Notes: generated from the letters alone by a model not told the origin. Positions 20,814 through 59,914 are shown, numbered from the stretch's first letter. The stretch is DNA of 64,000 nt from Gammaproteobacteria bacterium (GCA_033852155.1 JAWSVA010000010.1:65412-129411), one strand, 5' to 3'. Made by a program: numbers and translations.

Positions 20814-22490
20814 ATGATAACTCAGATTTTTATCCGCAACTTTGCCATTGTTGAACAACTAGAGCTGGACTTTATCCATGGCATGACTGCTTTTACCGGT
20901 GAAACTGGTGCTGGTAAGTCCATTCTACTTGATGCTATCGGCCTGATTTTAGGTGATAGATCTAATTCTGATACTGTTCGACATGGTACGGATAAAGCTG
21001 AAATAGTTTGTAGCTTTGATATATCAAATATAAAGCCTGCTCAAAAATGGCTTAATGAAAATGATCTTTTATTGGATGAAAATGATTGTTCAATAAGGCG
21101 CATCGTAAGTTGCGAAGGACGATCTAAAAGCTACATAAATGGCTCCCCCGCTCCGCTACAATCATTAAAGCAACTTGGGGAGATGTTGGTAGACATTCAT
21201 GGACAACATGAGCATCAATCCCTTACAAAGAAAGATACTCAGCGTGATATCCTCGATGAATATTCAAAAAACAAGCCTCTACTGCAGGAGGTTTCTAAAA
21301 TATTCGCTGAGTATTCAGCGGTTAAGAATGAGCTAGAAGCTCTTAAAAACAATAATAAAACAGCTCTTGAGCGCATTGATTTTCTTTGCTTTCAAACCAA
21401 TGAATTAGAATCTTTGGGGCTGATAGAAAATGAATACAAAAAGCTATCTGAAGAACATAGAATTCTTGCTAATGCAGGCAATATCTCCTCAATTGGCCGG
21501 CAAGTTTCGCAGTTATTGAGTGAAAACGAACAATTTAATGTAAATGATGTATTAGGCCAGTCACTATCTCTAATTGATTCTATGGGGATAAAAGATGAAA
21601 GACTAGGCACTATAACTGAGCTTCTTCGTTCTGCACAAATTCAGATTGACGAAGGCTATAACGAATTAACATCTTATATAGACAATATAGATCTAGACCC
21701 AAGCAGACTTGTTTTTGTTGAAGACCGTATTGCTGCAATAATCGATGTAGCGCGCAAGCACCACTGCGAACCAACCGAATTACTAACTAAATTTGATAGT
21801 TTAAAAAGCGAATTATCATCTTTAGAAAATGCTGAACATATTACAGAAGGCCTAGAAAAACAGCTTGCTACTTTAAAACTAACATACCAAGAAAAAGCCA
21901 ATAAGTTGTCAATTAAACGCTCTAAAGGTGCAAAAGAGTTAAGCAAAAAAATATCGACATCGATGGATGAACTTGGAATGACGGGTGGAATATTCGAGAT
22001 AAGTATCTCCAATAATGCTACGGAAGAACCACTTAAATTCGGTATCGATAAAATTGAATATTTAGTTTCCGCGAACAAAGGTCAGCCGCTTAAGGCTCTA
22101 GCTAAAATCGCATCCGGTGGTGAGCTATCTCGCATCAGCCTTGCCCTTCAAGTTGCAGCAGCAAATAGCATTAAAATTCCAACTATGATTTTTGATGAGG
22201 TTGATACTGGCATTGGTGGTGGGATTGCGCAGGTAGTTGGTAATAAGTTACGCCAACTATCTAGCGGTAGACAGGTGTTTTGCGTTACGCACTTACCACA
22301 AGTAGCTTCTAGTGCACATAATCATCTAAAAGTTGAAAAAAGTGTCAGTGGTGGGGTTACAAAAACCAGCATAAATTCTCTTAAAACTACACTTAGAGTT
22401 GATGAAATTGCACGGATGTTGGGTGGGATAACGATTACAGAAAATACTTTAAATCATGCGAAAGAGATGATTGAACATGCAGGGGTTTAA
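20814..22490 (+). CDS. recN: DNA repair protein RecN
   Basis: 558 aa with an N-terminal Walker A (GETGAGKS), a long coiled coil, and the C-terminal SMC-like signature and Walker B. Confidence 0.92.
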   Translation: MITQIFIRNFAIVEQLELDFIHGMTAFTGETGAGKSILLDAIGLILGDRSNSDTVRHGTDKAEIVCSFDISNIKPAQKWLNENDLLLDENDCSIRRIVSCEGRSKSYINGSPAPLQSLKQLGEMLVDIHGQHEHQSLTKKDTQRDILDEYSKNKPLLQEVSKIFAEYSAVKNELEALKNNNKTALERIDFLCFQTNELESLGLIENEYKKLSEEHRILANAGNISSIGRQVSQLLSENEQFNVNDVLGQSLSLIDSMGIKDERLGTITELLRSAQIQIDEGYNELTSYIDNIDLDPSRLVFVEDRIAAIIDVARKHHCEPTELLTKFDSLKSELSSLENAEHITEGLEKQLATLKLTYQEKANKLSIKRSKGAKELSKKISTSMDELGMTGGIFEISISNNATEEPLKFGIDKIEYLVSANKGQPLKALAKIASGGELSRISLALQVAAANSIKIPTMIFDEVDTGIGGGIAQVVGNKLRQLSSGRQVFCVTHLPQVASSAHNHLKVEKSVSGGVTKTSINSLKTTLRVDEIARMLGGITITENTLNHAKEMIEHAGV

Positions 22491-22550: not shown

Positions 22551-24206
22551 TTATTCAGTAAACTTAACTATGCAATTTCTGCCACGCTCTTTGGCTCTAT
22601 AAAGAGCTTTATCTGCCTCTAAGGCCATATCGACAGCATCTTTGCATTCTGGAAAAGTTGCAATTCCAGCACTAAATGATACGGTAAACTCCCCTTTTGA
22701 AGAGTGCTGTTTTATCGCCTCAAAATTTTCTCTTATCTCGTCAAGAACCTGAAAGGCAAATTCCTCATCAGCATCTGGCAGTACAACAGCGAACTCCTCA
22801 CCACCATAGCGCCCAATATAATCAGATTTTCTAAGTCTTTGCTGAAGTACGCGAGCCACGCTTTTAATCACACGGTCACCAACATGATGCCCATATGTAT
22901 CGTTGACAGATTTAAAGTGGTCAATATCTATCATTGCAAAGGTTAGTGAACCATTCTTACGCACTGCTCTGGCAACTTCATGAGTCAACTGGTCTTTAAT
23001 TCTGGTGTGGTTTAATAATCCGGTGAGATTATCTGTAACCATAAAGGTACGTAGGATTCTTGCTCTCTCAGCTCTAATTGCAACAGAGCGGATTAAGTGA
23101 GGTGGATTTATAGGTTTGGTAAGAAAATCATCGCCACCAAGGCTCATCGCATCAAGTTGACGTTCAATCTCTGTTTCTGCAGACAAGAATACTATTGGAA
23201 TACTTGCATAAGCAGGGAACTGTCTAATCACTTTAGCCAATTCCATACCACTACATTTTGGCATATACATATCCATGAGGATCATGTCTGCAGATACATC
23301 TTCCATTACGGCTAAGATATCAAGAGGGTCATTTATTACACTGGTTTCCATCCCTGCACGTTCAAGAATAGATGAGTAATAAAGCGATTGGGTTGCGCTA
23401 TCTTCAACAATAACTATATGTAGAGGGTCTACTTGCTCCTCTCCAGTTAGCTTATCTAGCTGGTCAATCATTTCATGCACATTAAGTGGTTTTACAAAAT
23501 ATGCATCAGCTCCAGATCTTGCAGCTGTTAAACGATGTTCAATATCATCATCATCTGATAGGAATACAATTGGTAAGTCGTCGTGGGTAATCTTACGAAT
23601 CTGGTCTGCCGCTTCTGCAGGGGATATGATCATCCCTGGGATGTTTACCGACATAATAATCACATCAGGAATATTATCAGTACTTAGCTCTTCAAATAGA
23701 TTTATATATGAATCAAACAGAGAGATATTATATCCAAAATGGGTAACTTGATCTGCAACCTCTTCATATAAAGCACGATCATTCTCTAACAGAAATACTT
23801 TGTAATTATTTACACGTAATTTAGAAACATTAAATTCTTGGCTTTTCCAATCAGAGTCGTCAATTTCTTCCAGCTCTACCTCTTTCAAAGCTCCAAGATA
23901 GTCTGCAAATACTTCATTTAACTCTTCACCTATAGATTCACCACCTTCTACCACAGGTAAAAGAGCCACATCTATAATTCTGGCTAATTCACTTACTTGA
24001 TGGAATTTAAGTGCCACACCTGAAGCTGCTAGATCATGTACTAATCTATGCATTGCATGCACAGACTCTCTTGAGCCTGTTTTTCTGACATTTAACCAGC
24101 AGAATTCAATATCAGCCACCTTCGCAGGCAACTCATCACGAAATTTCTTTCTTAGTATTTGTAATTTCTGATTTTGACTTAAATCAGTGTTGTTCATAAC
24201 AACCAT
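22551..24206 (-). CDS. response regulator with pseudo-receiver + receiver + GGDEF diguanylate cyclase (PleD-like)
   Basis: C-terminal GGDEF domain with an intact GGEEF active site (RYGGEEF). The preceding REC has the phospho-Asp context (ILMDMYMP). An upstream REC-like domain has Ser in place of the acceptor Asp (IIMSVNIP). The N-terminal ~130 aa may be HPt-like (HRLVHDLAASG). The start codon is uncertain (Met at 24206 or 24197). Confidence 0.75.
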   Translation of the reverse strand: MVVMNNTDLSQNQKLQILRKKFRDELPAKVADIEFCWLNVRKTGSRESVHAMHRLVHDLAASGVALKFHQVSELARIIDVALLPVVEGGESIGEELNEVFADYLGALKEVELEEIDDSDWKSQEFNVSKLRVNNYKVFLLENDRALYEEVADQVTHFGYNISLFDSYINLFEELSTDNIPDVIIMSVNIPGMIISPAEAADQIRKITHDDLPIVFLSDDDDIEHRLTAARSGADAYFVKPLNVHEMIDQLDKLTGEEQVDPLHIVIVEDSATQSLYYSSILERAGMETSVINDPLDILAVMEDVSADMILMDMYMPKCSGMELAKVIRQFPAYASIPIVFLSAETEIERQLDAMSLGGDDFLTKPINPPHLIRSVAIRAERARILRTFMVTDNLTGLLNHTRIKDQLTHEVARAVRKNGSLTFAMIDIDHFKSVNDTYGHHVGDRVIKSVARVLQQRLRKSDYIGRYGGEEFAVVLPDADEEFAFQVLDEIRENFEAIKQHSSKGEFTVSFSAGIATFPECKDAVDMALEADKALYRAKERGRNCIVKFTE

Positions 24207-24624
24207 TATCCTAATACTTATATAATTGAACTTTAAACAAAATATTACCAAGCATAACCTGTTAGATAGTTTTCAAAAAATCACTAACTTAGCTTTTAAA
24301 GTAAGGATAGCAGACAATAATTTATTTAGGCGATTACATACATCGAATGAATCACACTTTACTTGAATTTAAATTTATTTATATTTTTACGGCCTCAGAA
24401 ATACTGGTAAAATGAACCACTTCACACTTTTGGTGCAAGTATAAAAAAATATTTTTATTATTCTAAGTTATTTGCGATATTGCTTCTATAATTACCATTA
24501 TAAGTAAGCAACAAGGAGTTGTGCCATCAGGTTGTAGAAGCTTTGAATAATTTTTAAAATGATCTAACTATAGGTTTTTTAAACTTTACAATGAGAATAG
24601 CAATGGTGGCAAATAAAGATACCG

Positions 24625-26103
24625 ATGGGAAACTCAGTGATATCTAAACTAACATGCGGAATTATTGCCGGAAAGAAGAAAGATAAGAGCGAAAAATATA
24701 ATTTCGATCCTGATATTGTTATGGCCGCATTACAGAAAACAGCTGGAAGTGTTGGTAGTCTAGGCACTGAAGTTGTTGATATTGCCGGCAGAATTGAAAG
24801 TCTTGATGTGAAAATCAAGCATGAAGGGGAGATGTTTGGAAAGCTATTAGAGATCTCTAGCATCTTGATGGATAGCAATAAACGAGTCGAATCTTCAGTG
24901 CAGAAAGCAAAAAACCTTACCGCTTCTGCTAATCATAATATTGAAGCATCTAAAGGTACAATCGATTCATCCCTCTCGGATATAGTTACCCTTACCGAAT
25001 CCGTTACCAAAAGCTCTGACCAACTTGAAGAATTAAGCGATTCTCTTAAAGAGGTTCGCAAAATTGCAGTTACCATTAGCTCTATTGCCAAACAAACTAA
25101 CCTTCTTGCTCTCAATGCAACTATTGAAGCATCAAGAGCAGGAGAAGCTGGTCGTGGTTTTGCTGTTGTTGCTGAAGAGGTTAAAAACCTAGCTAAAAAA
25201 ACTGCTGATTCTACTATACAAATTAGCTCTACCCTTTCAACCCTAAGTAAAACAATTGAAACCTTGATTGACCAAGGTAACGAAAATAAAACAACCGCTG
25301 AAGATGTACGTCAAGGTACCACTCAGATTCAGAAAGTTATTGAAGAAATTGGTTCTACAGTTGCCCAAATTGATGAAGAAACAATTATGATCGTTGATGC
25401 TGTAGGCGAAATTGACGAGCAATGTGAAAAAACTGTAGACGGGTTAAATGATCTAACTACTGATGTGCAAGATGCGACACAAACTGTAAATAAAGCTCGT
25501 GAGCGAGCCACTACCCTTAGATCATGGACTGAAGAGTTAATCCGTTATACGGTTGTTCCCGGTGTTGTTACCGTTGACACTCCAATGATTGAAATGGTCA
25601 AAATGAAGGGTAAAGAAATAGAAAAGCTACTTGAAGGGGCAATCACAAAAGGGCTGCTGAGTGAGCAAGATATATTTGACCATAACTACGAACCTATACC
25701 ACATACTAATCCGCAGCATTTTATGACTCGCTATACCGATTTCTGCGGGAAAAACTTACCTGGAATTCAGGAGCCTGCACTAGAAAATGAAAGAGTTACC
25801 GCCTGTGTAACAGTTGATATTAATGGATATATGCCAAGACATATGAACTTTAGATCGCACCCACAAAGACCAGATGACCCAGAATGGAATAAAACCAACA
25901 GTCGTTACAGAATGATGTTTAATGACCCAGTTGGCATAGCTGCAGCAAGAAATACCAAACCTTTTCTACTACAAACTTATAGAGCACCGCTTGGAAAAGG
26001 GGAATATGCCTTAGTAAAAGACTGCTCTGTTCCTGTATATGTTAATGGCAAACATTGGGGCGCAATAAGGCTGACTTATGATCTAAAAGTTACTCACGAT
26101 TAG
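24625..26103 (+). CDS. soluble MCP-signalling-domain protein with conserved uncharacterised C-terminal domain (paralog 1)
   Basis: No TM segment. Methyl-accepting signalling-domain tip ([36 protein letters not shown]). C-terminal ~190 aa carries the motifs DTPMI, LFDxNYEPIP, [19 protein letters not shown] and NGKHWG shared with paralogs 2 and 4. Confidence 0.75.
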
Positions 26104-26171
26104 ACCTTAAATTATTCTTAATTTTATACTTTACTGATGTTTGTGTTTTTAATTAAGCACAAAAGGATAAA

Positions 26172-27572
26172 TTGGTAGCACAACTAATGAGTAACCCCGA
26201 ACTATTATCCACCATTCATAAAATTGCAGTAGCATCTGGAAAACTCGGCGTCCAAATTGTAGAGATGGCTGGCAATCTTGATACAACAACCATTCAAATC
26301 TCTGAAAAAGCTAAAAGTTTGCGTGAATTTGAAACCATATCATCCAAACTTTTAAGAAGTAATTCTGATATAGGCAGTGCAGCATCAAGCATTACCGGCG
26401 CTATAAATATTGCCTCCAGCAAAATCATTGTATCTGATGAAACCATCCGTGAATCACTAAATTCATTATCATCACTTACATCTTCCGTTGGTGATTTAGG
26501 CAGTCAAATCACAAGTTTCAAAGATTCTATGGATAAAGTTGGTAGCATTGCCAAAAAAATTGGCTCTATTGCTAAACAAACAAATCTACTTGCTCTTAAT
26601 GCTACCATTGAGGCTGTTCGCGCTGGCGGGAGAGGGAAAGGATTTGCTGTTGTAGCAGATGAGGTAAAAGCTTTATCCAAACAAGCATCAGATGCAGCAG
26701 CTGACATTGATAAAACTCTTGGAGATCTTGATACGATAACTAATAGATTAACTAATAAAGGGGAAATTTGCGCAGACCTTTCAGGTAAATTTGGCTCTAA
26801 AACTTCAGAAATTACAGCCATGTCTTCTCATGTAAAAGACATGATAAATTCTATTGACGGCGTATCGCAAAATATCACTTCATCGGTTAATGAAATCGAT
26901 AACGTCACCTCCTCTGCTGCCACTGAGATGGGCAAGCTTGTTGATAATTCAATTGCTACAAGCGAAGAACTTGAGCAGTCAAAACCTGCACTTGAAAATC
27001 TTTTAATAAACGCTCAAGAACTGGTCGGGCTAACTGCTATTGATGGCATTGAAACCATTGACACACCATATATAAATCTTGCTATTGAGCTTGCACAACG
27101 AGCGCAGAAAACCTTTGAGCAATGCATTAAAAGAAAAGAGGTGGATGAGAGGGTTTTGTTTGATTTTAGCTATGAAACCATTCCAGGCACGAACCCAACA
27201 CAGTATAAAGCCACTTTCCTAGAAACCACTGATGAATATTTTACAGATTTTCAAGAAGAGATAGCAAAGAAACTCCCAAATATCGTCGCTTCAGTTTGTT
27301 GTGATATAAATGGCTATATTGGAACGCATATGAAGGCCGTGTCCCAACCACCGACTGACGACCCAGAGTGGAATGCGCAACATTGCAGAAATAGAAAAGT
27401 TTATAATGATCCTGTTGGAATTAAATCTGCCAGAAACCAGGCAAAATCCCTACTTCAAATATACCGCCGAGACCAAGGAGCGGGAGAGTTTCTAATAGTT
27501 AAAGAAGCGACGGCCCCTATTCATATTTTTGGGCGCCACTGGGGTGCCGCTAGAATTAATTATACATCTTAA
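26172..27572 (+). CDS. soluble MCP-signalling-domain protein with the same C-terminal domain (paralog 2)
   Basis: MCP hairpin tip ([36 protein letters not shown]). C-terminal domain with DTPYI, LFDFSYETIPGTNP, DINGY, PTDDPEWN, NDPVG and GRHWG. Confidence 0.75.
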   Translation: MVAQLMSNPELLSTIHKIAVASGKLGVQIVEMAGNLDTTTIQISEKAKSLREFETISSKLLRSNSDIGSAASSITGAINIASSKIIVSDETIRESLNSLSSLTSSVGDLGSQITSFKDSMDKVGSIAKKIGSIAKQTNLLALNATIEAVRAGGRGKGFAVVADEVKALSKQASDAAADIDKTLGDLDTITNRLTNKGEICADLSGKFGSKTSEITAMSSHVKDMINSIDGVSQNITSSVNEIDNVTSSAATEMGKLVDNSIATSEELEQSKPALENLLINAQELVGLTAIDGIETIDTPYINLAIELAQRAQKTFEQCIKRKEVDERVLFDFSYETIPGTNPTQYKATFLETTDEYFTDFQEEIAKKLPNIVASVCCDINGYIGTHMKAVSQPPTDDPEWNAQHCRNRKVYNDPVGIKSARNQAKSLLQIYRRDQGAGEFLIVKEATAPIHIFGRHWGAARINYTS

Positions 27573-27591
27573 CTTATCAAGGATAGATTAG

Positions 27592-28509
27592 ATGTTTTTT
27601 CAAAAAAAAGCTGCAAAATCAAAGTCTGGCGTCAATGATGACCAATTAAATATCTATACTCGAATTATTAGGAATACGATTTCTCAAAGTGATGTTATCG
27701 AGAAACAGATACGCAATACTGAAACAAGAGTACTTTCAGCGATTGACAAAACAGAACAGGAAAAAATTCTTCTTGATGAGTTAACGCATAACTCTCAACA
27801 GGCAATTGATGCAATCAACTCTATTAAACACCATACAGATGAATCATCCGCTATATCAGAATCCTCTCTGCATGAAATAATGGGAACAAAAACTGACATC
27901 CATAAGTCACTTGATGCAATACAACTTCTAGTTGAAGCATCATTTGAGATTCAAGATGACCTGTTTGCGATATCAACAACTTTAAAGCGAATAGGCAAAG
28001 TTGCAGCAGGAATCAATAATATTGCCAAGCAGACAAACCTATTAGCATTGAATGCCACTATTGAGGCTGCACGAGCAGGAGAATCTGGCATCGGCTTCGC
28101 TAATGTAGCTGAAGAGGTAAAAAACCTCTCTAATGAAACGTCAAAAGCTACTATTGAAATTGATTCCATCTTAAAAATACTTAATGGCCAGATTCAGCGC
28201 CTAATCGATGAAAGTGCTGAGGGTGCAGGTAAGCAAAAAGAGCTAGATATCTGTCGCAAATCTATCGACAATATTTATGATTCTTTAAAAATGACTATAG
28301 AAACTGTCTCCTCTGCTTCCGGAGTAATAGGTAGAAATACCGATGATGTTGCAAGCCAGTGCAACTTTACTATTGAAAAACTTAATGGCCTAAAAGAAGA
28401 GTCAAATAGCTCTCTAGAATCACTTATGGTTGCCAAGAAAAACTCTAATATGCTTGTTCATGAATCCACTCAACTCATTGAACAATCAAAAGCAAAAACT
28501 GAAAACTAA
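27592..28509 (+). CDS. soluble MCP-signalling-domain-only protein (paralog 3, lacks the C-terminal domain)
   Basis: 305 aa, MCP tip ([36 protein letters not shown]), no TM and no C-terminal extension. Confidence 0.7.
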
Positions 28510-28644
28510 CACACAAAAGAAGCATAACATCGACTAGTTCTCGTTTTTCGGTTTTTTATCCAAATTTTATGGCAGTATTATTAGAACTAATTTCTTATAT
28601 GCTAGAATGAATTAAAGTTAAAATTATAAATTAGTTATATATGG

Positions 28645-30261
28645 ATGCACGTTTGGCTACATGGTGCATTAATTAATCAAACAAAAACAAATAAAGTAAT
28701 GGCTATGGTCTGGAATTTTCGTAAAAAAAATAATGACATGATAAAAAAGCGTGATTTCGATGTAGATGAACTACTCGACTCTATGCAAAAGACAGCAGAA
28801 GGTGTTGGAGAGCTTACCCTTGAGATTGTCGGAATATCTGGACGTGTTGACTCTCTGAGCCAGCAGGTTGATAACGAAGCAAAAATGTTTAATGATCTTA
28901 AAGACAATGCTAATTCAATGATTCAAAGCAACCACACTGTGAATGATTCAGTTAATATGACTAAAGGTGTCATAGTTAATGCAATAGATCATATCCAAGA
29001 ATCAAAAGTAACTATTAGTAGCTCTATCCATAATATTAAAGGGTTATCTGAATCTGTTACTGAAAGCAGCACAGAACTTATAAAACTTAGCTCTGCCCTA
29101 CGCCAGGTTAAAAAGATTACATCTACTATCGCTTCCATTTCAAAGCAAACAAATTTACTTGCACTAAATGCAACTATTGAAGCATCAAGAGCTGGTGAAG
29201 CTGGTAGAGGATTTGCTGTAGTAGCTGATGAAGTAAAATCTCTTTCTAAGAAAGCAGGTGAAGCAACATCAGAAATTTCAGTAACAATTAATGCACTTTC
29301 AAACCAGATTGAATCTCTGGTTAAAATGAGTGAGATTAATAATCAAAAAGCTGATTCTGTGAAAGATGACGCTCAAATGATTGATAATGCAATCACCTCA
29401 CTTGAGCACGATATAAATGAAATAGATGAAAATTCATCTAATATTGTTGCTGCAGCCTCAGATATTGAACAGCAATGTAATTTAACCGTTGATGGCCTTA
29501 ATAACCTTACAGAAGATGTCGAACAAGCTAGTGACACCTTTGGAAAGACAAAGGGGCGTATTAATGCTCTACGCAATAAAATTGAAGATATTGTAAGGCA
29601 TACGTTAGTTGATGGCGTTGAAACCATCGATACTCCAATGATTAATACCTGTAAAGGTCTTGCACAAGATGTAACCAACCTATTTGAAGGTGCCATCAAA
29701 AATGGGCAGATAGAAGAGTCTGACCTATTTGACTTTAACTATGTGGAGATACCAGGAACTAACCCGGTTCAATACAACACCAAATTTGTGCAATTTTGTG
29801 ATAGATCGCTTCCAGGGATTCAGCAACCTGTTCTTGAAGGTGATAATAAAAGAATTGCTACCTGTACGGTTACTGACATTAATGGCTTTATCCCCAGACA
29901 TATTAATGCAAGACACAATCCTCAACGCCCTGAGGACCCAGCGTGGAATAACTTAAACTGCCGCAGTATGAGAATATACAACGATCCATCAGGTATGAAT
30001 GCAGCAAAAAACAGAAATAAATTCCTATTACAAACTTATAGAATCCCCTACCTTGGTGGACAATTTGCCGTACTTAAAGACTGCTCATCACCCGTATATA
30101 TCAACGGCAAGCATTGGGGTTGCATGCGCATCACTTATGACATACAAGTTACCGATGAAGAGGGTAATGACATAATGAATACTGAAGCATTTAAACAAGT
30201 GCTAAAACAAGATAATTACCTAAAAGATAATGCGGACAAGGTTAAACTATCAAATAATTAG
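28645..30261 (+). CDS. soluble MCP-signalling-domain protein with the conserved C-terminal domain (paralog 4)
   Basis: MCP tip ([36 protein letters not shown]). C-terminal domain with [41 protein letters not shown] and NGKHWG. Start uncertain (several in-frame Met at 28645-28738). Confidence 0.75.
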
Positions 30262-30354
30262 TCAACCAATAATCGCAGTAAAATTACTTAATTTGCGATA
30301 GTAAACTCATCATGAGAAATATATAATCCCCTTTCAATCTAGGGGATTATATTT

Positions 30355-30687
30355 ATGAAACTTACTAAACTACTTTTAATAACATTTTCTATTTGCTTTC
30401 TTGCTGCTTGTTCTGATGGTCCATCAGAATCAGATATTGAATCAGTAATGCAAAAAAACTTCGACGACTTTAACGAATTAGTCCCTGCAGGTTTGGGCAC
30501 AAACATGAAGTTCGAGATCCATGAAATCATAAGCCATGGTTGTGAAAAGAAGCCTGATAACATATATGTATGTGATATTGAGGTTGATATGAGCGCACCG
30601 ATGATTGGCAGAAGAAAAGACAGGAGCAAAGTCGACTTCATTAAGAAAGATGGCAATTGGCAGACAACAGCTCAGTTTAAACCATAG
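30355..30687 (+). CDS. small lipoprotein, function unknown
   Basis: 110 aa with a signal peptide and lipobox (FLAAC). RBS-like GGGGATT upstream. Confidence 0.5.
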   Translation: MKLTKLLLITFSICFLAACSDGPSESDIESVMQKNFDDFNELVPAGLGTNMKFEIHEIISHGCEKKPDNIYVCDIEVDMSAPMIGRRKDRSKVDFIKKDGNWQTTAQFKP

Positions 30688-36106: not shown

Positions 36107-39100
36107 TTATGGAGCTAATATATTTATATCACCAAGGAACATGGTGAACTCTGTTTCCATAAATGGTAATAAGGTTTCTATTTGTTCTGAGTTTCTTGAA
36201 TGTATAGCCTGCTCTAAATTGAAAGAGGCTTGCTGAAACTTATCTGCAGATATAGTGGCTGCAACACCTTTAAGGCTATGACAAAGTCTATGGGCTAATC
36301 CATAATCTTTCTTTTGAAGGTACTCTTTTAGCTTTTCAATACTATCGCCGTAATCATTTTTAAACAGATAACATATCTCAGTAAAAAGCCCCTCATTTCC
36401 AGCCAGCATATCTAGTGTATTATGCACATCAATTGACTGTAAGTTATTCGGGAAATTAGCACTATCAACCTTTTCCTCAATATCTGCTTCAACCAAAATA
36501 GGCTCTGGAACTATTTGAACTCTTCTATCCCATTTTAGAATAAGCTCATAAAGATCTTTAGATTTAACTGGTTTTGATATGTAATCATCCATTCCATTTG
36601 AGATACAGGATTCTCTATCACCTTGCATGGCATTGGCTGTCATAGCAATTATCACTAAGTCTTTAGTAGCAGGCATAGATCTTAATATCTGTGTAGCCTC
36701 TATCCCACCAATTTCTGGCATATGAATATCCATAAAGACGACGTCGTATCTATTTTGTAGCGTTTTTGCAATTGCTTGCTTGCCATCTTCTGCAATATCT
36801 ACAACCGCACCGACTCTTTCTAGCATCTCACGACCAACTTGCTGATTTATTCTATTATCATCGGTTAGAAGAATTCTTATGCCTCTAATCTTTTCAAGAA
36901 TTTCAACTTCGTCATATGCTTTTTCATCATTTACACTAGATTTATAAATTGGCTTAAAGTCATGATTTGGCAGTAAACTTTTACAAACTGAATTGACAAG
37001 ATCTGATATTTTTATCGGCTTGGTAATGATATTAGATATATCTTTAAGTTGATCTTTGGCAATAGAATTATCGTACCCAAAAACAGATAATAACATAATC
37101 TTTGAATCACAAGAGGATCGTAACTCAGCTAGCCTGCAAGAGAAATCTTGGTCTAGCATATCAGCATCAACAAGTATTAAATCATAACCATTTGCAGATG
37201 ATATTTGCTGTAACAGCGATGCGTAATTATCTGTACTATCAGTATAGATACCATGATTTTTTAACGTTTCTTTTAAATAACTAGCTTCATGCTTATTGGT
37301 AGCAGCTATAAGAATATTCTTTTGCAAGATTTGTTCTGAAATCAGGCTAAGACTGTTATATAACCCAATACTGTTTGAGTCAGAGACTTTCATCTCGGTG
37401 GTAAATGTAAACTTACTTCCCTTACCTACTTCACTAGTTGCACTTATATCTCCATTCATCAGTGCTACTAAATGTTTGCAGATACTTAAACCAAGTCCAG
37501 TACCACCAAATTTTCTTGTGGTAGAGCCATCAGCCTGAGTAAATGGGGTAAATAGTCTTGGCAATACCTCTGGCGCGATACCAATACCAGTATCTGAAAC
37601 CATAAACGAAAGGGTAACTAAACCATTTTCAATCTTGGCTATATCTACAGTTATCTGAATTTCACCTTCATCGGTAAATTTGATTGCATTATTTATAATA
37701 TTTATAAGAACCTGACTCAGACGCAAAGGGTCACCAATAACTTGCCCAGGGAGCTTAGAGCTTGGGTTGATAATCATACTGATGTTCTTATCAACTATTC
37801 TGGTAGAAAAGATATCGGATATATGATCAATAACTTCATATATATTGAACTCTGTCTCTTCAATATTTAGCTTACCAGCCTCGATTTTTGAGAAATCGAG
37901 GATGTCATTTATTATCCCCAGCAGAGTCTGTGAAGAAGTGTTAATTTTACCTAGATAATCACGCAATTTTGTGGACATATCACGCTGAAGGGCCAGCTCA
38001 GTAAGTCCAATAATAGCATTCATCGGGGTTCTGATTTCATGGCTCATATTAGCCAAGAATGAGCTTTTAGCATCTGCAGAAGCTTCAGCAGCCTGCATAG
38101 CAATCATTAGAGCTTCATTTTTCTTTCTTTCAGTATCAACCAATTTGTCCTGAGTAATTTTCAACTCAGACAGAGTATTTTCAATCTCATCTTTTTGCTC
38201 AGCAATAGTTGAGTATAGGCCTGCATTGACAATTGCTGTACCAATAAATGATGATAGAAGTTCAAGAAAATTAATATCTTCTCGAGAAAGGTTAACATAC
38301 GATTTAAAACCGCTTATTGAAATAACACCAATAGATTTACCATCTTTATTGATTGGTAAATGGATAATAGATTTCAACCCTTCCAACCGCTCCAACATCA
38401 CTCTATCGTTGTGGTTCATAGGTAGATTCATTACCTGTGGTACATCAGGAAAATATAAATTTTGATTATTTAGATAACACATAGAGTACGAGCCACCTTC
38501 ATAGCTAATATCGTATGGGTTATCCTCCGTAAATTCAGACCATAATCTAGCTTTTTCCTTATACTCTTCCCCTTTGGTATAGGAAGATACCCCGCGCAAC
38601 AGCCCACCCTTTTCAATCAATATCACAACCATATCAAATGGATAGCGGCTTAAAAACTCATCCGAAATCTTTTCGTATATTTTATCAACTGAATTTAGGT
38701 TATTTACTTCATTTACAAAATTAAGAAACTGCGCGCGTTCAGCGATACCGGTTTCTACAATCTGCTCTTTCTGCTTAAGCTCAGAGTATTTAATTGAATT
38801 ATCAATTGGGTCAAAGAACAGCGAAAGTTTTTTGCCTAAATAATCTATAGATTTCTTACTAATAGCCTCGGAACTATTGAATAACATAATAGCACCCAAT
38901 ACTGGGGCGTTATTATCTTCTATATTGGTTATAGGTATGCTAACCATGTTGTGCATTTTCCAGGCCTTAAACCTAGAGCGAGTTGATTCCGAGAATTTTT
39001 CAATATTATCAGCATTGATTGATACAACTCGTTTATTCTGTATTACTGGTGTGTTTTCATCTGTTGGCCCAAGAGAGTAATTAAAATGATGGAAGGTTTT

Positions 39101-39922
39101 CTCTATAGCTTTAAACTCACCAGGCAAACAAACCCTATTACAAGTAAGATACTTTTTAGCTTTATCTAACAGATTAATCGAATAACCATTTACACTTTCA
39201 AGCTTGCCAATCTCACCACCAAGAATCTCCATGATTTCATCTAGTTTGATTGTTCGGCTTATTCTATGAACTATATCAAGTGTTTCCAGCTGCTCTTGCT
39301 TTATATACTCCTGCTCAAATTTATTTTTTACAATCAGAAAATTTGGAGCCAAACTACCTATAAAAAGATAGATCTCTTCACAAATTTCTTTAGTAAGGTT
39401 TAATTGTTTATCAATAGCACCTAGATGTATTACAGCTATGGTCTTACCACCATCAATAATTGGGAGAATCAAATTTTCTTTAATATTAAGCAGCTCAAGA
39501 CTATTACGGTCAACTTCAGGAATATCACTCAGGGACTCAATTGCTTCAGAATTTGCATAAACCCATCTTTTTGATAGTGCGACTGATGCTGATACAGAAA
39601 GCTTCGGGTCCAAAGGTATATCTACAGATACCTTTTTTCGAATATCATCGCTAACTTCATCTTTGGTATAAAAAGTTAAGAACTTAAGGGCATTTTTCTC
39701 TTCATCAATGATTTGCCCAGCAGACATGTTGAATCCATATCTTTTGTGCAATGCATTGAGAATGACATTTAAAACTTCTTCTAAGGAATCAGAGTGTGCA
39801 ATTTCATGAATTAATGAAATTTCGTTTTGCAAAACATCAATATTACCAGGCCCATGGACCAAAGTTCCACTAAATTGATCTAAGCTTACTTCAGCAAATG
39901 ATTGTTTCTGATTATTTTGCAT
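36107..39922 (-). CDS. hybrid sensor histidine kinase: GAF repeats - HisKA - HATPase_c - pseudo-receiver - receiver - HPt
   Basis: 1271 aa with no obvious TM. HisKA H-box (MSHEIRTPMNAIIGL). ATPase G-boxes (DTGIGI, GGTGLGLSICKHLV). A receiver with phospho-Asp context (VVFMDIHMPEIGG) preceded by a degenerate REC-like module. C-terminal HPt (HRLCHSLKGVAATISA). Confidence 0.85.
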   Translation of the reverse strand: MQNNQKQSFAEVSLDQFSGTLVHGPGNIDVLQNEISLIHEIAHSDSLEEVLNVILNALHKRYGFNMSAGQIIDEEKNALKFLTFYTKDEVSDDIRKKVSVDIPLDPKLSVSASVALSKRWVYANSEAIESLSDIPEVDRNSLELLNIKENLILPIIDGGKTIAVIHLGAIDKQLNLTKEICEEIYLFIGSLAPNFLIVKNKFEQEYIKQEQLETLDIVHRISRTIKLDEIMEILGGEIGKLESVNGYSINLLDKAKKYLTCNRVCLPGEFKAIEKTFHHFNYSLGPTDENTPVIQNKRVVSINADNIEKFSESTRSRFKAWKMHNMVSIPITNIEDNNAPVLGAIMLFNSSEAISKKSIDYLGKKLSLFFDPIDNSIKYSELKQKEQIVETGIAERAQFLNFVNEVNNLNSVDKIYEKISDEFLSRYPFDMVVILIEKGGLLRGVSSYTKGEEYKEKARLWSEFTEDNPYDISYEGGSYSMCYLNNQNLYFPDVPQVMNLPMNHNDRVMLERLEGLKSIIHLPINKDGKSIGVISISGFKSYVNLSREDINFLELLSSFIGTAIVNAGLYSTIAEQKDEIENTLSELKITQDKLVDTERKKNEALMIAMQAAEASADAKSSFLANMSHEIRTPMNAIIGLTELALQRDMSTKLRDYLGKINTSSQTLLGIINDILDFSKIEAGKLNIEETEFNIYEVIDHISDIFSTRIVDKNISMIINPSSKLPGQVIGDPLRLSQVLINIINNAIKFTDEGEIQITVDIAKIENGLVTLSFMVSDTGIGIAPEVLPRLFTPFTQADGSTTRKFGGTGLGLSICKHLVALMNGDISATSEVGKGSKFTFTTEMKVSDSNSIGLYNSLSLISEQILQKNILIAATNKHEASYLKETLKNHGIYTDSTDNYASLLQQISSANGYDLILVDADMLDQDFSCRLAELRSSCDSKIMLLSVFGYDNSIAKDQLKDISNIITKPIKISDLVNSVCKSLLPNHDFKPIYKSSVNDEKAYDEVEILEKIRGIRILLTDDNRINQQVGREMLERVGAVVDIAEDGKQAIAKTLQNRYDVVFMDIHMPEIGGIEATQILRSMPATKDLVIIAMTANAMQGDRESCISNGMDDYISKPVKSKDLYELILKWDRRVQIVPEPILVEADIEEKVDSANFPNNLQSIDVHNTLDMLAGNEGLFTEICYLFKNDYGDSIEKLKEYLQKKDYGLAHRLCHSLKGVAATISADKFQQASFNLEQAIHSRNSEQIETLLPFMETEFTMFLGDINILAP

Positions 39923-54191: not shown

Positions 54192-54992
54192 CTACGCAGA
54201 CGTTACCTTCATCGACAGTGTAGACATCTCACCCTGCGGTATGGGTGGACCCGAAGGCCCCATACTTGTCGGGTGAATATGGGTAGCAAACATGGTGAGA
54301 AAACTCTGACCTTTGATAATCGGCTCTCCACCTGCGCCACCTAGCTGTACTTGCGTTGCATCAAGGTTAATGGTTTGTGCTTGAATCTTTATTCCTGCAG
54401 CACCCATCTCAACCTTATTACCATTACTGTCTTCAACCACGACTCCACTTGAATCCATAGTTGCTGTATTACCATTGGCATCAACAATCTCTATCGAGCC
54501 GCCTTCGGCATCCATAGTAAGTGCGCCATCATCTTGCGCACGTAGTTCAATCGAACCATTATTATCAATTTTAAAAATGGCACCACCTGAGTGGGTAATA
54601 AGGATCTCTTCTTCATCTTCCTTATCTTCTAGCTCAATAGAGTGTCCTGACTGTGTGCGCAAAATCTTTCTGGTTGGTTGTGCACCTTCGCCAGTTGGCA
54701 TTGCCTGTTCTGGCTGCCAAAAAGTTCCTGTCCAGATTGGATGTGATACCATCCCCTCTTCAAACTCAACCCACACTTGGGCATCAACTTCTGGAATAAA
54801 ACTCATACCAACATTATCCATACCGCCATATGGAAGGCATGGCAAAGCCCATCCGGTAACCTCTTCACCAAGTACCGAAGGCACCATAAGTTTAAGCTTA
54901 CCGAGTTTATCTGGGTCTTCTCTGTCCACTACGAAACCACGGTATTTACCGTAGTAGCGTTGTGTTGATGAGTTTTGTGTTTCGTCTGTCAT
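54192..54992 (-). CDS. gpV/gp5-like baseplate spike protein (OB-fold + beta-helix; VgrG C-terminal half equivalent)
   Basis: 266 aa starting YYGKYRGFVVDREDPDKLGKLKLMVPSVLGEEVTGWALPCLPYGGMDNVGMSFIPEVDAQVWVEFEEG...HPIWTG, a textbook Phage_base_V OB-fold. It is followed by Gly/Asn-rich beta-helix repeats. Confidence 0.8.
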   Translation of the reverse strand: MTDETQNSSTQRYYGKYRGFVVDREDPDKLGKLKLMVPSVLGEEVTGWALPCLPYGGMDNVGMSFIPEVDAQVWVEFEEGMVSHPIWTGTFWQPEQAMPTGEGAQPTRKILRTQSGHSIELEDKEDEEEILITHSGGAIFKIDNNGSIELRAQDDGALTMDAEGGSIEIVDANGNTATMDSSGVVVEDSNGNKVEMGAAGIKIQAQTINLDATQVQLGGAGGEPIIKGQSFLTMFATHIHPTSMGPSGPPIPQGEMSTLSMKVTSA

Positions 54993-59282: not shown

Positions 59283-59914
59283 TTATCAGCCTCACAAACA
59301 GTAGTTTTAATACCGTGTTCTTTTACCGTGTCCATATCTGCTTTTTTATATGAGATATCAGACACAGTGATGAGAGAAACTTTTTCCACTGGAGGAGCCG
59401 GAATCTTTTTCTCTTTAGGAATAATCGGTGTTATTGAAATTTCGTATCCAATCGATGGTCTGTAGGTAACATCACGCTGATTGTTCCACACCTGATTAAT
59501 CTCTTCGATGGTCAACCCTTGTTGAATAATCTGTATAAAGAACTCTTCACCATCTTCAATCTTCACCTGTACAAATGGTTTCTCATGCAAGATGCGGATA
59601 ACTTCGCCCAGAAAACGCAGATCGTTTTCTCCAGAGCTGACATTATCTTCAGTAACTGCAAATGGAGTTATCAGGCAATGGGTCTTAGTCATTAAATTCT
59701 CGCCTGATGTGGTATCTGGCGAAAATGCATAAGGCTCAATTCTATAAAAGAAAAGATTAATCTTATGGTCAGAATCCTGCCCTGCTGGTTGAGCATTGGC
59801 TGGATTACCCAGCACTACGCGAACATCAGAACCATCATCAATAATATTATCACTGATATGTCTGGCAACCGCGTTGCAAACCTTTGATAGGGAAGAAGGA
59901 GAAGGAGCTGCCAT
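59279..59914 (-). CDS. putative tail terminator/cap protein (DUF4255/Pvc16_N-like), tentative
   Basis: 211 aa, the typical DUF4255 size. N-terminal pattern VRVVLGNPANAQP...INLFFYRIEP fits the G.P...LFLY.V.EN consensus I recall for this family. Stop-start coupled (TAAATG) with the upstream gene. Confidence 0.4.
   Translation of the reverse strand: MAAPSPSSLSKVCNAVARHISDNIIDDGSDVRVVLGNPANAQPAGQDSDHKINLFFYRIEPYAFSPDTTSGENLMTKTHCLITPFAVTEDNVSSGENDLRFLGEVIRILHEKPFVQVKIEDGEEFFIQIIQQGLTIEEINQVWNNQRDVTYRPSIGYEISITPIIPKEKKIPAPPVEKVSLITVSDISYKKADMDTVKEHGIKTTVCEADK

What the first reader, a model, noticed from the sequence alone, without database searches (positions are those of the whole stretch)
24625..30261. 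Tandem array of four cytoplasmic MCP-signalling-domain paralogs, three sharing an unrecognised ~190-aa C-terminal domain
None of the four has a transmembrane segment, a periplasmic sensor or a HAMP domain. Paralogs 1, 2 and 4 append the same conserved C-terminal domain with the invariant motifs DTP(M/Y)I, LFDF(N/S)YE.IPGTNP.Q, DING(Y/F), Q.P.DDPEWN, R.(R/M)...NDP.G, LLQ(T/I)YR and (N)G(K/R)HWG..R(I/L).Y. Its placement after the signalling hairpin, rather than before it, is unusual for chemoreceptors. I cannot match it to the known C-terminal add-ons CZB or CheW-like, or to PAS or PilZ. Paralog 3 is a bare signalling domain. Together these look like an expanded family of soluble sensors with a possibly undescribed ligand- or partner-binding domain. 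They sit next to a GGDEF response regulator.
Basis: seen in the sequence. Interest (0 to 1): 0.75.

Follow-up and report, generated by a model that had tools for sequence, protein, structure and literature searches.

The report
Soluble chemoreceptors with C-terminal Cache-like sensor
Four neighbouring genes encode membrane-free chemotaxis-receptor proteins, and three of them end in a widespread sensor domain that has the fold of the well-known Cache/PAS sensors, is missing from the domain databases searched, and has an unknown ligand.

Summary
Four co-directional ORFs (24625-30261) each carry one MCP signalling domain and no TM segment or HAMP. Paralogs 1, 2 and 4 share a ~175-aa C-terminal domain that Pfam and NCBIfam do not recognise.

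The family is large: 2,600 representatives of 50%-identity clusters. Most members are soluble MCPs of ~450-560 aa with the domain at the extreme C-terminus. The same domain also sits between TM1 and TM2, ahead of HAMP, in ordinary MCPs and histidine kinases. It also occurs fused to PilZ and on its own.

The array, together with the divergent REC-REC-GGDEF gene, is conserved as a cassette in three related genomes, once at a different chromosomal site. No che genes lie in the window.

Most likely these are 40H-type cytoplasmic chemoreceptors that read an intracellular small molecule through the Cache pocket. A link to c-di-GMP output is possible. The ligand is unknown.

Verdict: a new family or variant of a known kind, of moderate interest.

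The parts
22551..24197 (-). Divergently transcribed (Hpt-like)-REC-REC-GGDEF diguanylate cyclase gene. The ORF extends to 24251; the called start gives 548 aa.
   Evidence: PF00072 Response_reg matches twice (E 6e-36) and PF00990 GGDEF matches at E 8e-45. RYGGEEF, preceded by RKSD, can be read in the translation. The Hpt match is sub-threshold (E 0.038). The gene is 77-87% identical in three related cassettes, matching paralog 1 and exceeding RecN.
24625..26103 (+). Paralog 1: soluble MCP, 492 aa. Disordered aa 1-28; helix 29-171; hairpin tip ~172-174; helix 173-309; linker 310-318; Cache-like domain 319-492.
   Evidence: PF00015 at E 4.5e-29. Full-length AF2 model has pLDDT 84.8. No TM segment. 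It is the most conserved paralog across relatives, at 77-87%.
25576..26100 (+). C-terminal Cache-like sensor domain of paralog 1 (aa 318-492).
26187..27572 (+). Paralog 2: soluble MCP, 461 aa from the ATG at 26187. The mechanical ORF starts at a TTG at 26172.
   Evidence: PF00015 at E 2.9e-27. Start taken from the gene call in L002. It is 34% identical to p1. Orthologues are 46-73% identical.
27060..27569 (+). C-terminal Cache-like domain of paralog 2 (aa 292-461).
   Evidence: Alignments A1 and A2. Every column invariant across the 17-sequence alignment A2, which includes this paralog, is retained. Coordinates.
27592..28509 (+). Paralog 3: bare signalling hairpin, 305 aa. It ends 141 residues after the tip, where the C-arm of the other paralogs ends.
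   Evidence: PF00015 at E 6.5e-24 only. Arm lengths. It is conserved but fast-evolving in relatives, at 39-61%.
28705..30261 (+). Paralog 4: soluble MCP, 518 aa from 28705. The mechanical ORF starts at 28645.
   Evidence: PF00015 at E 3.9e-28. Cluster relatives are 518 aa. It is 48% identical to p1. It is duplicated in L089 and absent from L085.
29629..30138 (+). C-terminal Cache-like domain of paralog 4 (aa 309-478). A ~40-aa low-conservation tail follows, to 30258.
   Evidence: Alignments A1 and A2. Coordinates.
30321..30352 (.). Inverted repeat just downstream of paralog 4, terminator-like on both strands.
   Evidence: Consensus scan only. The total number of terminator-like sites was not clearly above the shuffled expectation (7 found against 4.2 +/- 2.2).

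Best explanation
The four genes are a lineage-specific expansion of class IV (cytoplasmic) chemoreceptors of about 40 heptads.

Structure. Each protein is a long antiparallel coiled-coil hairpin. Its tip, [16 protein letters not shown](S/A/V)RAGE.G.GFA, has the canonical sequence of the region that docks CheA and CheW in characterised MCPs.

Sensor. In paralogs 1, 2 and 4 the C-terminal helix of the hairpin leaves through a short conserved non-helical linker (..G.ET(V/I)DTP). It enters a single-Cache (PDC/PAS-like) sensor domain. Because the hairpin is antiparallel, this places the sensor at the tip-distal end, where HAMP or an N-terminal sensor sits in ordinary receptors. The topology matches the CZB domain of TlpD or the PilZ domain of Tlp1.

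Proposed mechanism. The domain binds a small ligand. The candidate pocket lies between the beta-sheet (Q140, Y142, H167) and the motif-rich insertion (D88, N90, H96, R117, D124, N133). Binding alters packing of the tip-distal bundle and hence kinase control at the tip. The same domain, with the same invariant polar residues, also works in the periplasm. The ligand is therefore probably a small ion or metabolite present on both sides of the membrane.

Paralog 3 has no sensor. It probably joins mixed trimers of dimers as a modulator or scaffold.

Output. The divergent (Hpt-like)-REC-REC-GGDEF protein is co-inherited with the array. It is a likely co-regulated partner or output, as WspR is in the Wsp system.

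Shown: the gene structure, the MCP domain, the fold, the family size, the architectures, and cassette conservation.
Inferred: ligand binding, CheA/CheW coupling, the pocket residues, the role of paralog 3, and the c-di-GMP link.
For: MCP identity:
- PF00015 matches in all four proteins.
- The tip sequence is invariant across the paralogs.
- The AF2 model shows helix 29-171, a turn, helix 173-309, a 9-residue linker, then the domain.
- The C-arm from the tip to the DTP motif is 143 aa in p1, p2 and p4. In p3 it is 141 aa to the stop. That is about 20 heptads per arm.

Sensor fold:
- pLDDT 90.5.
- Foldseek gives the same set.

Sensor role:
- The same domain lies between two TM segments, followed by HAMP. 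This is seen in MCPs P0072, P0101, P0160 and P0180, in histidine kinases P0128 and P0144, and in HAMP-GAF proteins.
- P0055 carries one periplasmic and one C-terminal copy.

Family size and conservation:
- 2,600 representatives at E<=1e-3 and 1,261 at E<=1e-30.
- 54 of 66 sampled members have MCPsignal.
- 110 of 153 domain instances are at the C-terminus.
- All 80 best genome loci encode proteins with the domain at the extreme C-terminus, nearly all ~450-630 aa.
- The invariant polar residues are listed.

Cassette:
- The GGDEF response regulator plus MCPs occur at the nadK-recN site in L089 and L090, and at a different site in L085/L086.
- GGDEF and p1 are 77-87% identical to their orthologues. 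RecN is 72-75%.
Against: - No cheA, cheW, cheR, cheB or cheY lies in the 64-kb window. Coupling to a kinase is therefore unverified.
- A simple scan found no methylation-site-like [ASTGV]xx[EQ][EQ]xx[ASTGV] motif in the expected parts of the arms, apart from one loose match in the C-arm of paralog 3. There is no C-terminal CheR-binding pentapeptide. Classical adaptation may be absent. That scan is crude.
- The hairpin and the sensor are joined by a non-helical linker rather than a continuous helix. The transmission path is not obvious.
- No ligand can be named. I had no access to model coordinates, so the pocket assignment rests only on secondary-structure position and strand periodicity.
- In 80 unrelated genomes the family member is an orphan gene with no conserved neighbour and no GGDEF. 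The c-di-GMP link is specific to this clade.
- The heptad class was estimated from arm lengths, not from class-specific models.
Confidence: 0.6

Rival explanations
1. The cassette is a c-di-GMP control module rather than a motility-taxis input. The MCP-like proteins regulate the divergent REC-REC-GGDEF cyclase. They do this either through a CheA-type kinase encoded elsewhere (Wsp-like logic) or by direct protein contact. The output is c-di-GMP, biofilm or surface behaviour.
For: - GGDEF response regulator plus MCPs travel together at two different chromosomal sites.
- GGDEF and paralog 1 show matched, unusually high conservation: 87/87, 87/85 and 77/77%, against RecN at 72-75%.
- The cyclase has an intact GGEEF and RxxD and two REC domains.
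- Elsewhere the same Cache-like domain is repeatedly fused to PilZ, a c-di-GMP receptor.
Against: - No CheA, CheW, CheB or CheR is in the cassette or the window. Wsp-type systems normally keep these together.
- The hairpin tip is fully canonical, which fits ordinary arrays.
- Outside this clade, family members have no GGDEF neighbour.
- GGDEF genes are abundant, so adjacency alone is weak evidence.
- This reading is not exclusive of the best explanation.
Confidence: 0.3
2. The C-terminal domain holds a tightly bound metal or cofactor through the invariant His, Asp and Tyr residues. It reports redox state, oxygen, NO or metal availability. It would be an energy- or stress-taxis sensor rather than a reversible metabolite binder.
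For: - Two invariant histidines (H96, H167) occur with invariant D88, D124, N90, N133, Q140 and Y142.
- The polar core is nearly identical in periplasmic and cytoplasmic members. This fits a fixed cofactor or ion better than diverse ligands.
- Many soluble MCPs are energy or redox sensors. This is general knowledge of Aer2, HemAT, AerC and TlpD.
- A related design, Cache_heme, uses an insertion in the Cache fold to hold heme c (bioRxiv 10.64898/2026.05.25.727664).
Against: - There is no CXXCH, no conserved Cys across the family, and no match to DUF3365/Cache_heme or any heme or metal family.
- The geometry of the conserved residues could not be checked.
- The invariant Arg residues (R117, R172) would fit an anionic ligand as well.
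Confidence: 0.2
3. The C-terminal domain is not a signal input. It is a localisation, oligomerisation or partner-binding module, for example recruiting the soluble receptors to an array, to the pole, or to the cyclase.
For: - Soluble receptors need some way of joining arrays.
- The C-terminus of TlpD is reported to be needed for polar localisation (PMC13001251; title and abstract only).
- The linker to the hairpin is non-helical, which is not ideal for conformational coupling.
- The family also occurs as a stand-alone protein and fused to PilZ.
Against: - In transmembrane MCPs and kinases the domain is the only extracytoplasmic module, and it sits exactly where ligand-binding domains sit.
- The fold is that of ligand-binding Cache domains.
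- The conserved residues are polar and lie in strands or the insertion. They do not form a surface hydrophobic patch, although this could not be checked in 3D.
Confidence: 0.12
4. Paralogs 2 to 4 are redundant duplicates drifting towards loss. Only paralog 1 is functional.
For: Orthologue identity falls from p1 (77-87%) to p2 (46-73%) and p3 (39-61%). Paralog 4 is absent from one relative and duplicated in another.
Against: - All are intact ORFs in four genomes.
- Paralogs 2 and 4 keep every family-invariant residue.
- All keep the canonical tip.
- The bare paralog 3 is retained in every cassette.
Confidence: 0.05

Closest known systems
Helicobacter pylori TlpD (soluble MCP with a C-terminal CZB zinc-binding sensor)
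   Same: It is a cytoplasmic class IV chemoreceptor. The sensor is attached after the signalling hairpin, so it sits at the tip-distal end. It has no TM segment and no HAMP.
   Different: CZB is an all-helical zinc-binding bundle with its own Pfam model. The domain here is an alpha/beta Cache/PDC fold with no CZB hit.
Azospirillum brasilense Tlp1 (MCP with a C-terminal PilZ domain; PMC3604760, PMC6406031)
   Same: An extra input domain follows the signalling hairpin. Chemoreceptor signalling is tied to c-di-GMP.
   Different: Tlp1 is transmembrane and its add-on is PilZ. The window proteins have no PilZ. Relatives do exist as MCPsignal-PilZ-domain, for example on a Methylobacterium currus plasmid.
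Single-Cache / PDC extracytoplasmic sensor domains (WalK 4ywz/7dud, CitA, DctB, the modules of Tlp3, Adeh_3718 sCache_2)
   Different: Sequence identity is 7-16%. No Pfam Cache model matches. There is a ~45-residue motif-rich insertion after the strand ending at D88. In most family members the domain is cytoplasmic and C-terminal, which is atypical for Cache.
Pseudomonas aeruginosa Wsp system (WspA MCP feeding the WspR REC-GGDEF protein)
   Same: An MCP-type receptor gene neighbours a REC-GGDEF cyclase. A chemosensory route to c-di-GMP is plausible.
   Different: Wsp encodes its own CheA, CheW, CheR and CheB homologues next to the receptor, and WspA is a membrane protein. None of these is in the window. 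The cyclase here has two REC domains and a possible Hpt.
Cache_heme (DUF3365)-HAMP receptors (bioRxiv 10.64898/2026.05.25.727664)
   Same: Relatives of the domain form TM-Cache-like-TM-HAMP proteins of ~300 aa with no output domain. One such gene lies beside a Ser/Thr kinase gene. Both designs modify the Cache fold with an insertion.
   Different: There is no CXXCH heme c motif and no DUF3365 match. The window proteins are soluble MCPs, not HAMP-only membrane receptors.

Membership tests
Methyl-accepting chemotaxis protein (MCP signalling domain, PF00015) | Match to the signalling-domain model above the curated cut-off | tested here: met
   Scores are 85-102 bits against a cut-off of 34.6 for all four proteins.
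Methyl-accepting chemotaxis protein (MCP signalling domain, PF00015) | Antiparallel coiled-coil hairpin with the conserved CheA/CheW-binding tip | tested here: met
   AF2 shows helix 29-171, a turn, then helix 173-309. The tip [21 protein letters not shown] is invariant in the four paralogs.
Methyl-accepting chemotaxis protein (MCP signalling domain, PF00015) | Methylation sites and/or a CheR/CheB-tethering pentapeptide (adaptation) | tested here: inconclusive
   Simple consensus scans found no such motif in the expected parts of the arms, apart from one loose match in paralog 3, and no pentapeptide at the C-termini. The scan is crude, and many MCPs lack the pentapeptide.
Methyl-accepting chemotaxis protein (MCP signalling domain, PF00015) | Works with CheA and CheW encoded in the same genome | not testable with these tools
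   Only 64 kb is available and it holds no che genes. The source genome was not among the species representatives.
40H heptad class of MCPs | About 20 heptads in each arm of the hairpin | tested here: inconclusive
   The C-arm is 141-143 aa in all four. In the p1 model the helices are 143 and 137 aa. This is consistent with 40H, but no class-specific model was available.
Cache superfamily (PDC/PAS-like extracytoplasmic sensors) | Fold: long N-terminal helix plus PAS-like alpha/beta module | tested here: met
Cache superfamily (PDC/PAS-like extracytoplasmic sensors) | Sequence match to a described Cache family (sCache_2, sCache_3, dCache_1-3, Cache_3-Cache_2 and others) | tested here: not met
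   No Cache model hits the window proteins at E<=0.1. None covers this domain in 66 relatives. The profile search of PDB sequences gave a best Cache hit of E 0.42.
Cache superfamily (PDC/PAS-like extracytoplasmic sensors) | Extracytoplasmic location between two TM helices or after a signal peptide | tested here: not met
   The window copies are cytoplasmic and C-terminal. The feature is met in relatives: P0072, P0101, P0160, P0128, P0005 and P0008.
Cache superfamily (PDC/PAS-like extracytoplasmic sensors) | Binds a small-molecule ligand in the pocket | not testable with these tools
   Needs biochemistry or an experimental structure.
PAS domain (cytoplasmic) | Match to a PAS sequence model | tested here: not met
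CZB (chemoreceptor zinc-binding) domain | Helical bundle with a His/Cys zinc site and a match to the CZB model | tested here: not met
   No Pfam hit. The predicted fold is alpha/beta, not a helical bundle.
PilZ domain | Match to PF07238 | tested here: not met
   No hit in the window proteins. In some relatives PilZ is a separate neighbouring domain.
Cache_heme (DUF3365) | CXXCH heme c motif in a helical insertion | tested here: not met
   No CXXCH and no Cys conserved across the family. No DUF3365 hit.
Wsp-like (ACF) chemosensory system | Receptor clustered with CheA, CheW, CheR and CheB homologues and a REC-GGDEF output | tested here: not met
   Only the receptors and a REC-REC-GGDEF gene are present. 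No CheA, CheW, CheR or CheB is in the window or in the related cassettes. Genes elsewhere in the genome cannot be checked.

The most novel reading that the evidence does not exclude
This could be an undescribed, very large Cache-superfamily sensor family. It would recognise one conserved small ligand or ion on both sides of the membrane. It would also be the principal C-terminal sensor of soluble ~40H chemoreceptors across Alpha-, Beta- and Gammaproteobacteria.

In this gammaproteobacterial clade it has expanded into a 3-5 gene cassette hard-wired to a REC-REC-GGDEF cyclase. That would be a chemoreceptor-type route from an intracellular cue to c-di-GMP without a dedicated che operon.
Probability: 0.25. 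Interest if true: 0.7.

Novelty: new variant of a known kind. Interest (0 to 1): 0.5.

Why it matters
About a quarter of cytoplasmic chemoreceptors are reported to have no identifiable sensor (Collins et al. 2014, as quoted in PMC10613068). This finding accounts for a sizeable share of them.

It identifies a single-Cache-type domain with 2,600 cluster representatives. The domain is unmodelled in the Pfam and NCBIfam copies searched, and no relative was found by sequence among PDB chains. It sits after the signalling hairpin.

A profile built from alignment A2 would let annotators label thousands of 'MCP, no sensor' proteins. It would also label periplasmic domains of MCPs, kinases and HAMP-only receptors that currently have no annotation.

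The polar core is almost invariant. One ligand-identification experiment could therefore be informative for the whole family.

The conserved pairing with a REC-REC-GGDEF gene in this clade gives a tractable system for asking how soluble receptors feed c-di-GMP signalling.

The gain is incremental rather than conceptual. Cache sensors, C-terminal add-ons on soluble MCPs, and MCP-to-GGDEF wiring are all known principles.

Tried and rejected
- Amb0994 lead. I recalled this soluble MCP-like protein of Magnetospirillum as possibly having a C-terminal partner-binding domain. The literature describes it as a CetA-type transducer without a sensory domain. Rejected.
- Cache_heme/DUF3365. Considered because of the Cache-plus-insertion design and the HAMP-only architecture of relatives. 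Rejected because there is no CXXCH and no model hit.
- McpR of Caulobacter (copper taxis). Its sensor is N-terminal and is followed by HAMP. Not this architecture.
- MtpA of Methylobacterium aquaticum 22A. This is a soluble formaldehyde-taxis MCP in which only MCPsignal was detected (PMC10613068). It could be a family member, but its sequence was not obtainable. The one Methylobacterium member I could read is MCPsignal-PilZ-domain (M. currus plasmid), so it is not MtpA-like. My last homologue search returned only short proteins. Left as an untested lead.
- Gene-neighbourhood clustering of 80 genome loci. No neighbour is conserved beyond close relatives, so context gives no ligand hint.
- Contexts of periplasmic and HAMP-only relatives. 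These showed only a recurrent DUF8082 gene and one Ser/Thr kinase.
- Sequence and profile searches of the PDB. Nothing significant.
- Foldseek against afdb50. The library was unavailable.
- Pfam scan of 149 representatives. It exceeded the size limit and was repeated on 66.
- Promoter and terminator scans. Not above the shuffled expectation.
- Literature searches for a description of a cytoplasmic or C-terminal Cache domain on MCPs. Nothing found. This is absence in the searchable library only, and the Collins et al. review could not be opened.
The 3D clustering of conserved residues could not be checked.

Full report
**1. What is there**

ORF listing shows four co-directional + strand genes at 24625-26103 (492 aa), 26172-27572, 27592-28509 (305 aa) and 28645-30261.
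- Gene calls on identical public contigs put the start of paralog 2 at the ATG at 26187 (461 aa).
- Cluster relatives of 518 aa put the start of paralog 4 at 28705.
- With the revised starts, the gaps between genes are 83, 19 and 195 bp.

Each protein matches PF00015 (MCP signalling domain) at E 6.5e-24 to 4.5e-29. No other family is matched above its cut-off. There is no HAMP, PAS, Cache, CZB or PilZ hit, and nothing in Pfam or NCBIfam covers the last ~175 residues of paralogs 1, 2 and 4. The highest 19-residue hydropathy is 1.13, so no TM segment is predicted.

The paralogs are old duplicates. Full-length identities are p1-p4 48%, p1-p2 34% and p1-p3 32%, with E-values from 1e-31 to 4e-166. 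The C-terminal domains alone are 39-52% identical.

**2. The signalling part**

The hairpin-tip sequence [21 protein letters not shown] is identical in all four paralogs.

A full-length AlphaFold2 model of paralog 1 was built on 51 homologues (pLDDT 84.8). It shows:
- a disordered N-terminus (aa 1-28);
- helix 29-171, a turn, then helix 173-309;
- a 9-residue non-helical linker (310-318, VVPGVVTVD);
- the C-terminal domain.

The distance from the tip to the conserved DTP motif is 143 residues in paralogs 1, 2 and 4. Paralog 3 stops 141 residues after its tip. Paralog 3 is therefore exactly the hairpin without the add-on, and all four have about 20 heptads per arm. That is consistent with the 40H class, although I had no class-specific models.

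I found no methylation-site-like motif in the expected parts of the arms, apart from one loose match in paralog 3. I also found no C-terminal pentapeptide. This weakly suggests that classical adaptation may be absent.

**3. The C-terminal domain**

A first homologue search with aa 305-492 of paralog 1 found relatives at 32-69% identity. None were in the expected architecture. They included ~300-aa TM-domain-TM-HAMP proteins, ~200-aa proteins with a signal peptide, and ~230-250-aa soluble proteins.

A 17-sequence alignment (A2) keeps 16 invariant positions: F41, Y45, D88, N90, G91, H96, R117, D124, N133, Q140, Y142, P160, G165, H167, W168 and G169, numbered from V311 of paralog 1.

AlphaFold2 on A2 gave pLDDT 90.5 and pTM 0.85. 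The model has a long N-terminal helix, two short strands, two helices, a strand ending at D88, a ~45-residue insertion holding most of the motifs, and three long antiparallel strands.

Fold comparison gave:

Sequence identity in these matches is 6-16%, and sequence or profile searches of PDB chains found nothing significant. The domain is therefore a divergent single-Cache-type sensor domain. The fold is known; the family is not covered by the libraries I could search.

**4. Size and architectures of the family**

A profile search of 1.84 billion cluster representatives found 2,600 proteins at E<=1e-3 and 1,261 at E<=1e-30.

Among the best 149 representatives I counted 153 domain instances:
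- 110 lie at the C-terminus after more than 200 residues;
- 16 are N-terminal;
- 10 are essentially stand-alone;
- 17 are other cases, largely fragments.

A sample of 66, enriched for unusual lengths, gave 54 with MCPsignal and 12 with HAMP. The rest included GAF, PAS, HATPase_c and PilZ, and no Pfam model covered the domain itself.

In the N-terminal cases the domain lies between two predicted TM segments and is followed by HAMP. These include ordinary MCPs (P0072, P0101, P0160, P0180), histidine kinases (P0128, P0144) and HAMP-GAF proteins. One receptor, P0055, has the domain both in the periplasmic position and after the hairpin.

The best 80 loci come from Burkholderia, Paraburkholderia, Pandoraea, Ralstonia, Rhizobium, Neorhizobium, Hoeflea, Sneathiella, Rhodospirillales, Halorhodospira, Myxococcota and others. 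In all 80 the domain is at the extreme C-terminus, and nearly all the proteins are 450-630 aa. Azospirillum species carry 463-467-aa members. PilZ-domain fusions and 180-240-aa stand-alone forms are common. A Methylobacterium currus plasmid encodes MCPsignal-PilZ-domain.

The placement after the hairpin is thus the rule for this family, not an oddity of this locus.

**5. Genomic context**

The window holds no che genes.
- Upstream are carAB, an RND pump, dapB, dnaJ-dnaK-grpE, nadK and recN.
- Downstream are a 110-aa lipoprotein-like ORF, a LysR regulator, DUF188, a subtilase, a hybrid kinase and a contractile-injection-system cluster.

The divergent neighbour (22551-24197) has two REC domains and an intact GGDEF domain. 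Its N-terminus is weakly Hpt-like (E 0.038).

Across the 80 unrelated genomes no neighbour is conserved, and a 50%-identical relative is a lone gene. Within the clade of the window, however, the cassette is conserved:
- L089: the same nadK-recN site, with five MCP genes.
- L090: MAG GCA_033852075.1, the same site, with four MCP genes.
- L085/L086: GCA_004796385.1, a different chromosomal site, with three MCP genes.

All have the divergent REC-GGDEF gene.

Identity of each gene to the window copy:

| Gene | L089 | L090 | L085 |
|---|---|---|---|
| GGDEF response regulator | 87.5% | 86.6% | 77.4% |
| Paralog 1 | 86.6% | 85.2% | 77.1% |
| Paralog 2 | 73% | 70% | 46% |
| Paralog 3 | 61% | 59% | 39% |
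| Paralog 4 | 71-73% (two copies) | 71% | absent |
| RecN | 72% | 75% | not in locus |

Two observations argue for a functional link between the array and the cyclase: the cassette stays together at two different sites, and the cyclase and paralog 1 show matched, high conservation. This remains an inference.

**6. How it most likely works**

Shown: these are soluble MCP hairpins with a canonical tip. Three of them carry a Cache-fold domain that serves as the extracytoplasmic sensor module in other receptors.

Inferred:
- The domain binds a small ligand.
- Because the hairpin is antiparallel, a domain on the C-terminal helix sits at the tip-distal end, the normal input end. Ligand-induced changes there would modulate CheA control at the tip, as proposed for CZB in TlpD.
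- By strand periodicity, Q140 and Y142 share one face, and H167 lies on the neighbouring strand. D88 ends the preceding strand. N90, H96, R117, D124 and N133 lie in the insertion that corresponds to the lid region of Cache and PAS domains. These are my candidate pocket residues, but I could not inspect coordinates.
- The polar core is nearly identical in periplasmic and cytoplasmic members. This suggests one conserved ligand class available in both compartments, such as a small anion, a metal ion or a permeant metabolite.
- Paralog 3 probably joins mixed receptor trimers without providing input.
- The REC-REC-GGDEF protein is a plausible output or partner.

**7. Comparison with what is known, and verdict**

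The closest functional analogues are TlpD (C-terminal CZB) and Tlp1 (C-terminal PilZ). The closest structural relatives are single-Cache and dCache sensor domains. The closest system-level analogue is Wsp, but the che components that define Wsp are not in the cassette. Cache_heme-HAMP receptors parallel the HAMP-only relatives.

My literature searches found no description of this domain. I cannot exclude one outside the searchable library or in newer database releases. One possible characterised member, MtpA of Methylobacterium aquaticum, could not be tested.

I classify the finding as a new variant of a known kind: a new Cache-superfamily family, typically placed after the hairpin of soluble chemoreceptors. 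Interest is moderate (0.5). It is useful for annotation and testable, but it does not overturn any principle.

Noticed in passing
window 41508-63829 (- strand): A probable extracellular contractile injection system (eCIS/PVC-like) gene cluster. It contains an eCIS_core protein (42216-44636), a DUF6519 protein (44761-47727), Phage_base_V (54192-54992), an AAA ATPase (57936-59282) and Pvc16_N (59279-59914). Several large ORFs in the cluster have no Pfam hit.
   Followed up: partly
window 36107-39922 (- strand): A 1271-aa hybrid sensor kinase (GAF-HisKA-HATPase_c-REC-Hpt) lies a few genes downstream of the array. It keeps this position in the syntenic relatives L089 and L090. It could be a phosphodonor for the REC-REC-GGDEF protein. 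Not tested.
   Followed up: no
window 30355-30687 (+ strand): A 110-aa ORF has a lipoprotein-type signal (…FLAAC SD) and no Pfam hit. It lies directly after paralog 4 and is conserved in that position at 56-61% identity in L089 and L090.
   Followed up: partly
L092 3475-6918; L083 1166-3792: The ~300-aa TM-domain-TM-HAMP relatives, which have no output domain, sit just downstream of a DUF8082 gene in two unrelated contigs. In L092 they are also near a Ser/Thr protein kinase. This recalls the Cache_heme-HAMP/kinase pairs described in bioRxiv 10.64898/2026.05.25.727664.
   Followed up: partly
P0055 (758 aa), P0053 (1089 aa): One receptor carries the domain twice: once between TM1 and TM2, and once after the signalling hairpin. 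Another carries two copies ahead of the MCP domain (residues 37-218 and 272-450), with TM-like segments at 17-35 and 220-238.
   Followed up: partly
L093 3768-5504 (Methylobacterium currus plasmid NZ_CP089298.1); P0320, P0342 and others: The domain is repeatedly fused to PilZ. One form is MCPsignal-PilZ-domain (578 aa). Many others are 255-300-aa PilZ-domain proteins. This is a second, independent association of the domain with c-di-GMP signalling.
   Followed up: partly
literature: PMC10613068: MtpA of Methylobacterium aquaticum 22A is a soluble MCP that mediates formaldehyde taxis. Only MCPsignal was detected in it, and its ligand site is unknown. It has the annotation signature of this family, but its sequence could not be obtained to test membership.
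   Followed up: partly
window 22551-24251 versus 20814-22490, compared with L089, L090 and L085: The REC-REC-GGDEF protein and paralog 1 are more conserved between relatives (77-87%) than the housekeeping RecN next door (72-75%).
   Followed up: yes
homologue tables: A few homologues carry precomputed hits to Pfam accessions absent from the local Pfam copy (PF28175.1 in P0205; PF28019.1 in P0231, P0296 and P0301). They occur in only 4 of 120 relatives, so they are unlikely to model the C-terminal domain. I could not look up what they are. One homologue (P0256) comes from a eukaryotic transcriptome set, presumably bacterial contamination.
   Followed up: no
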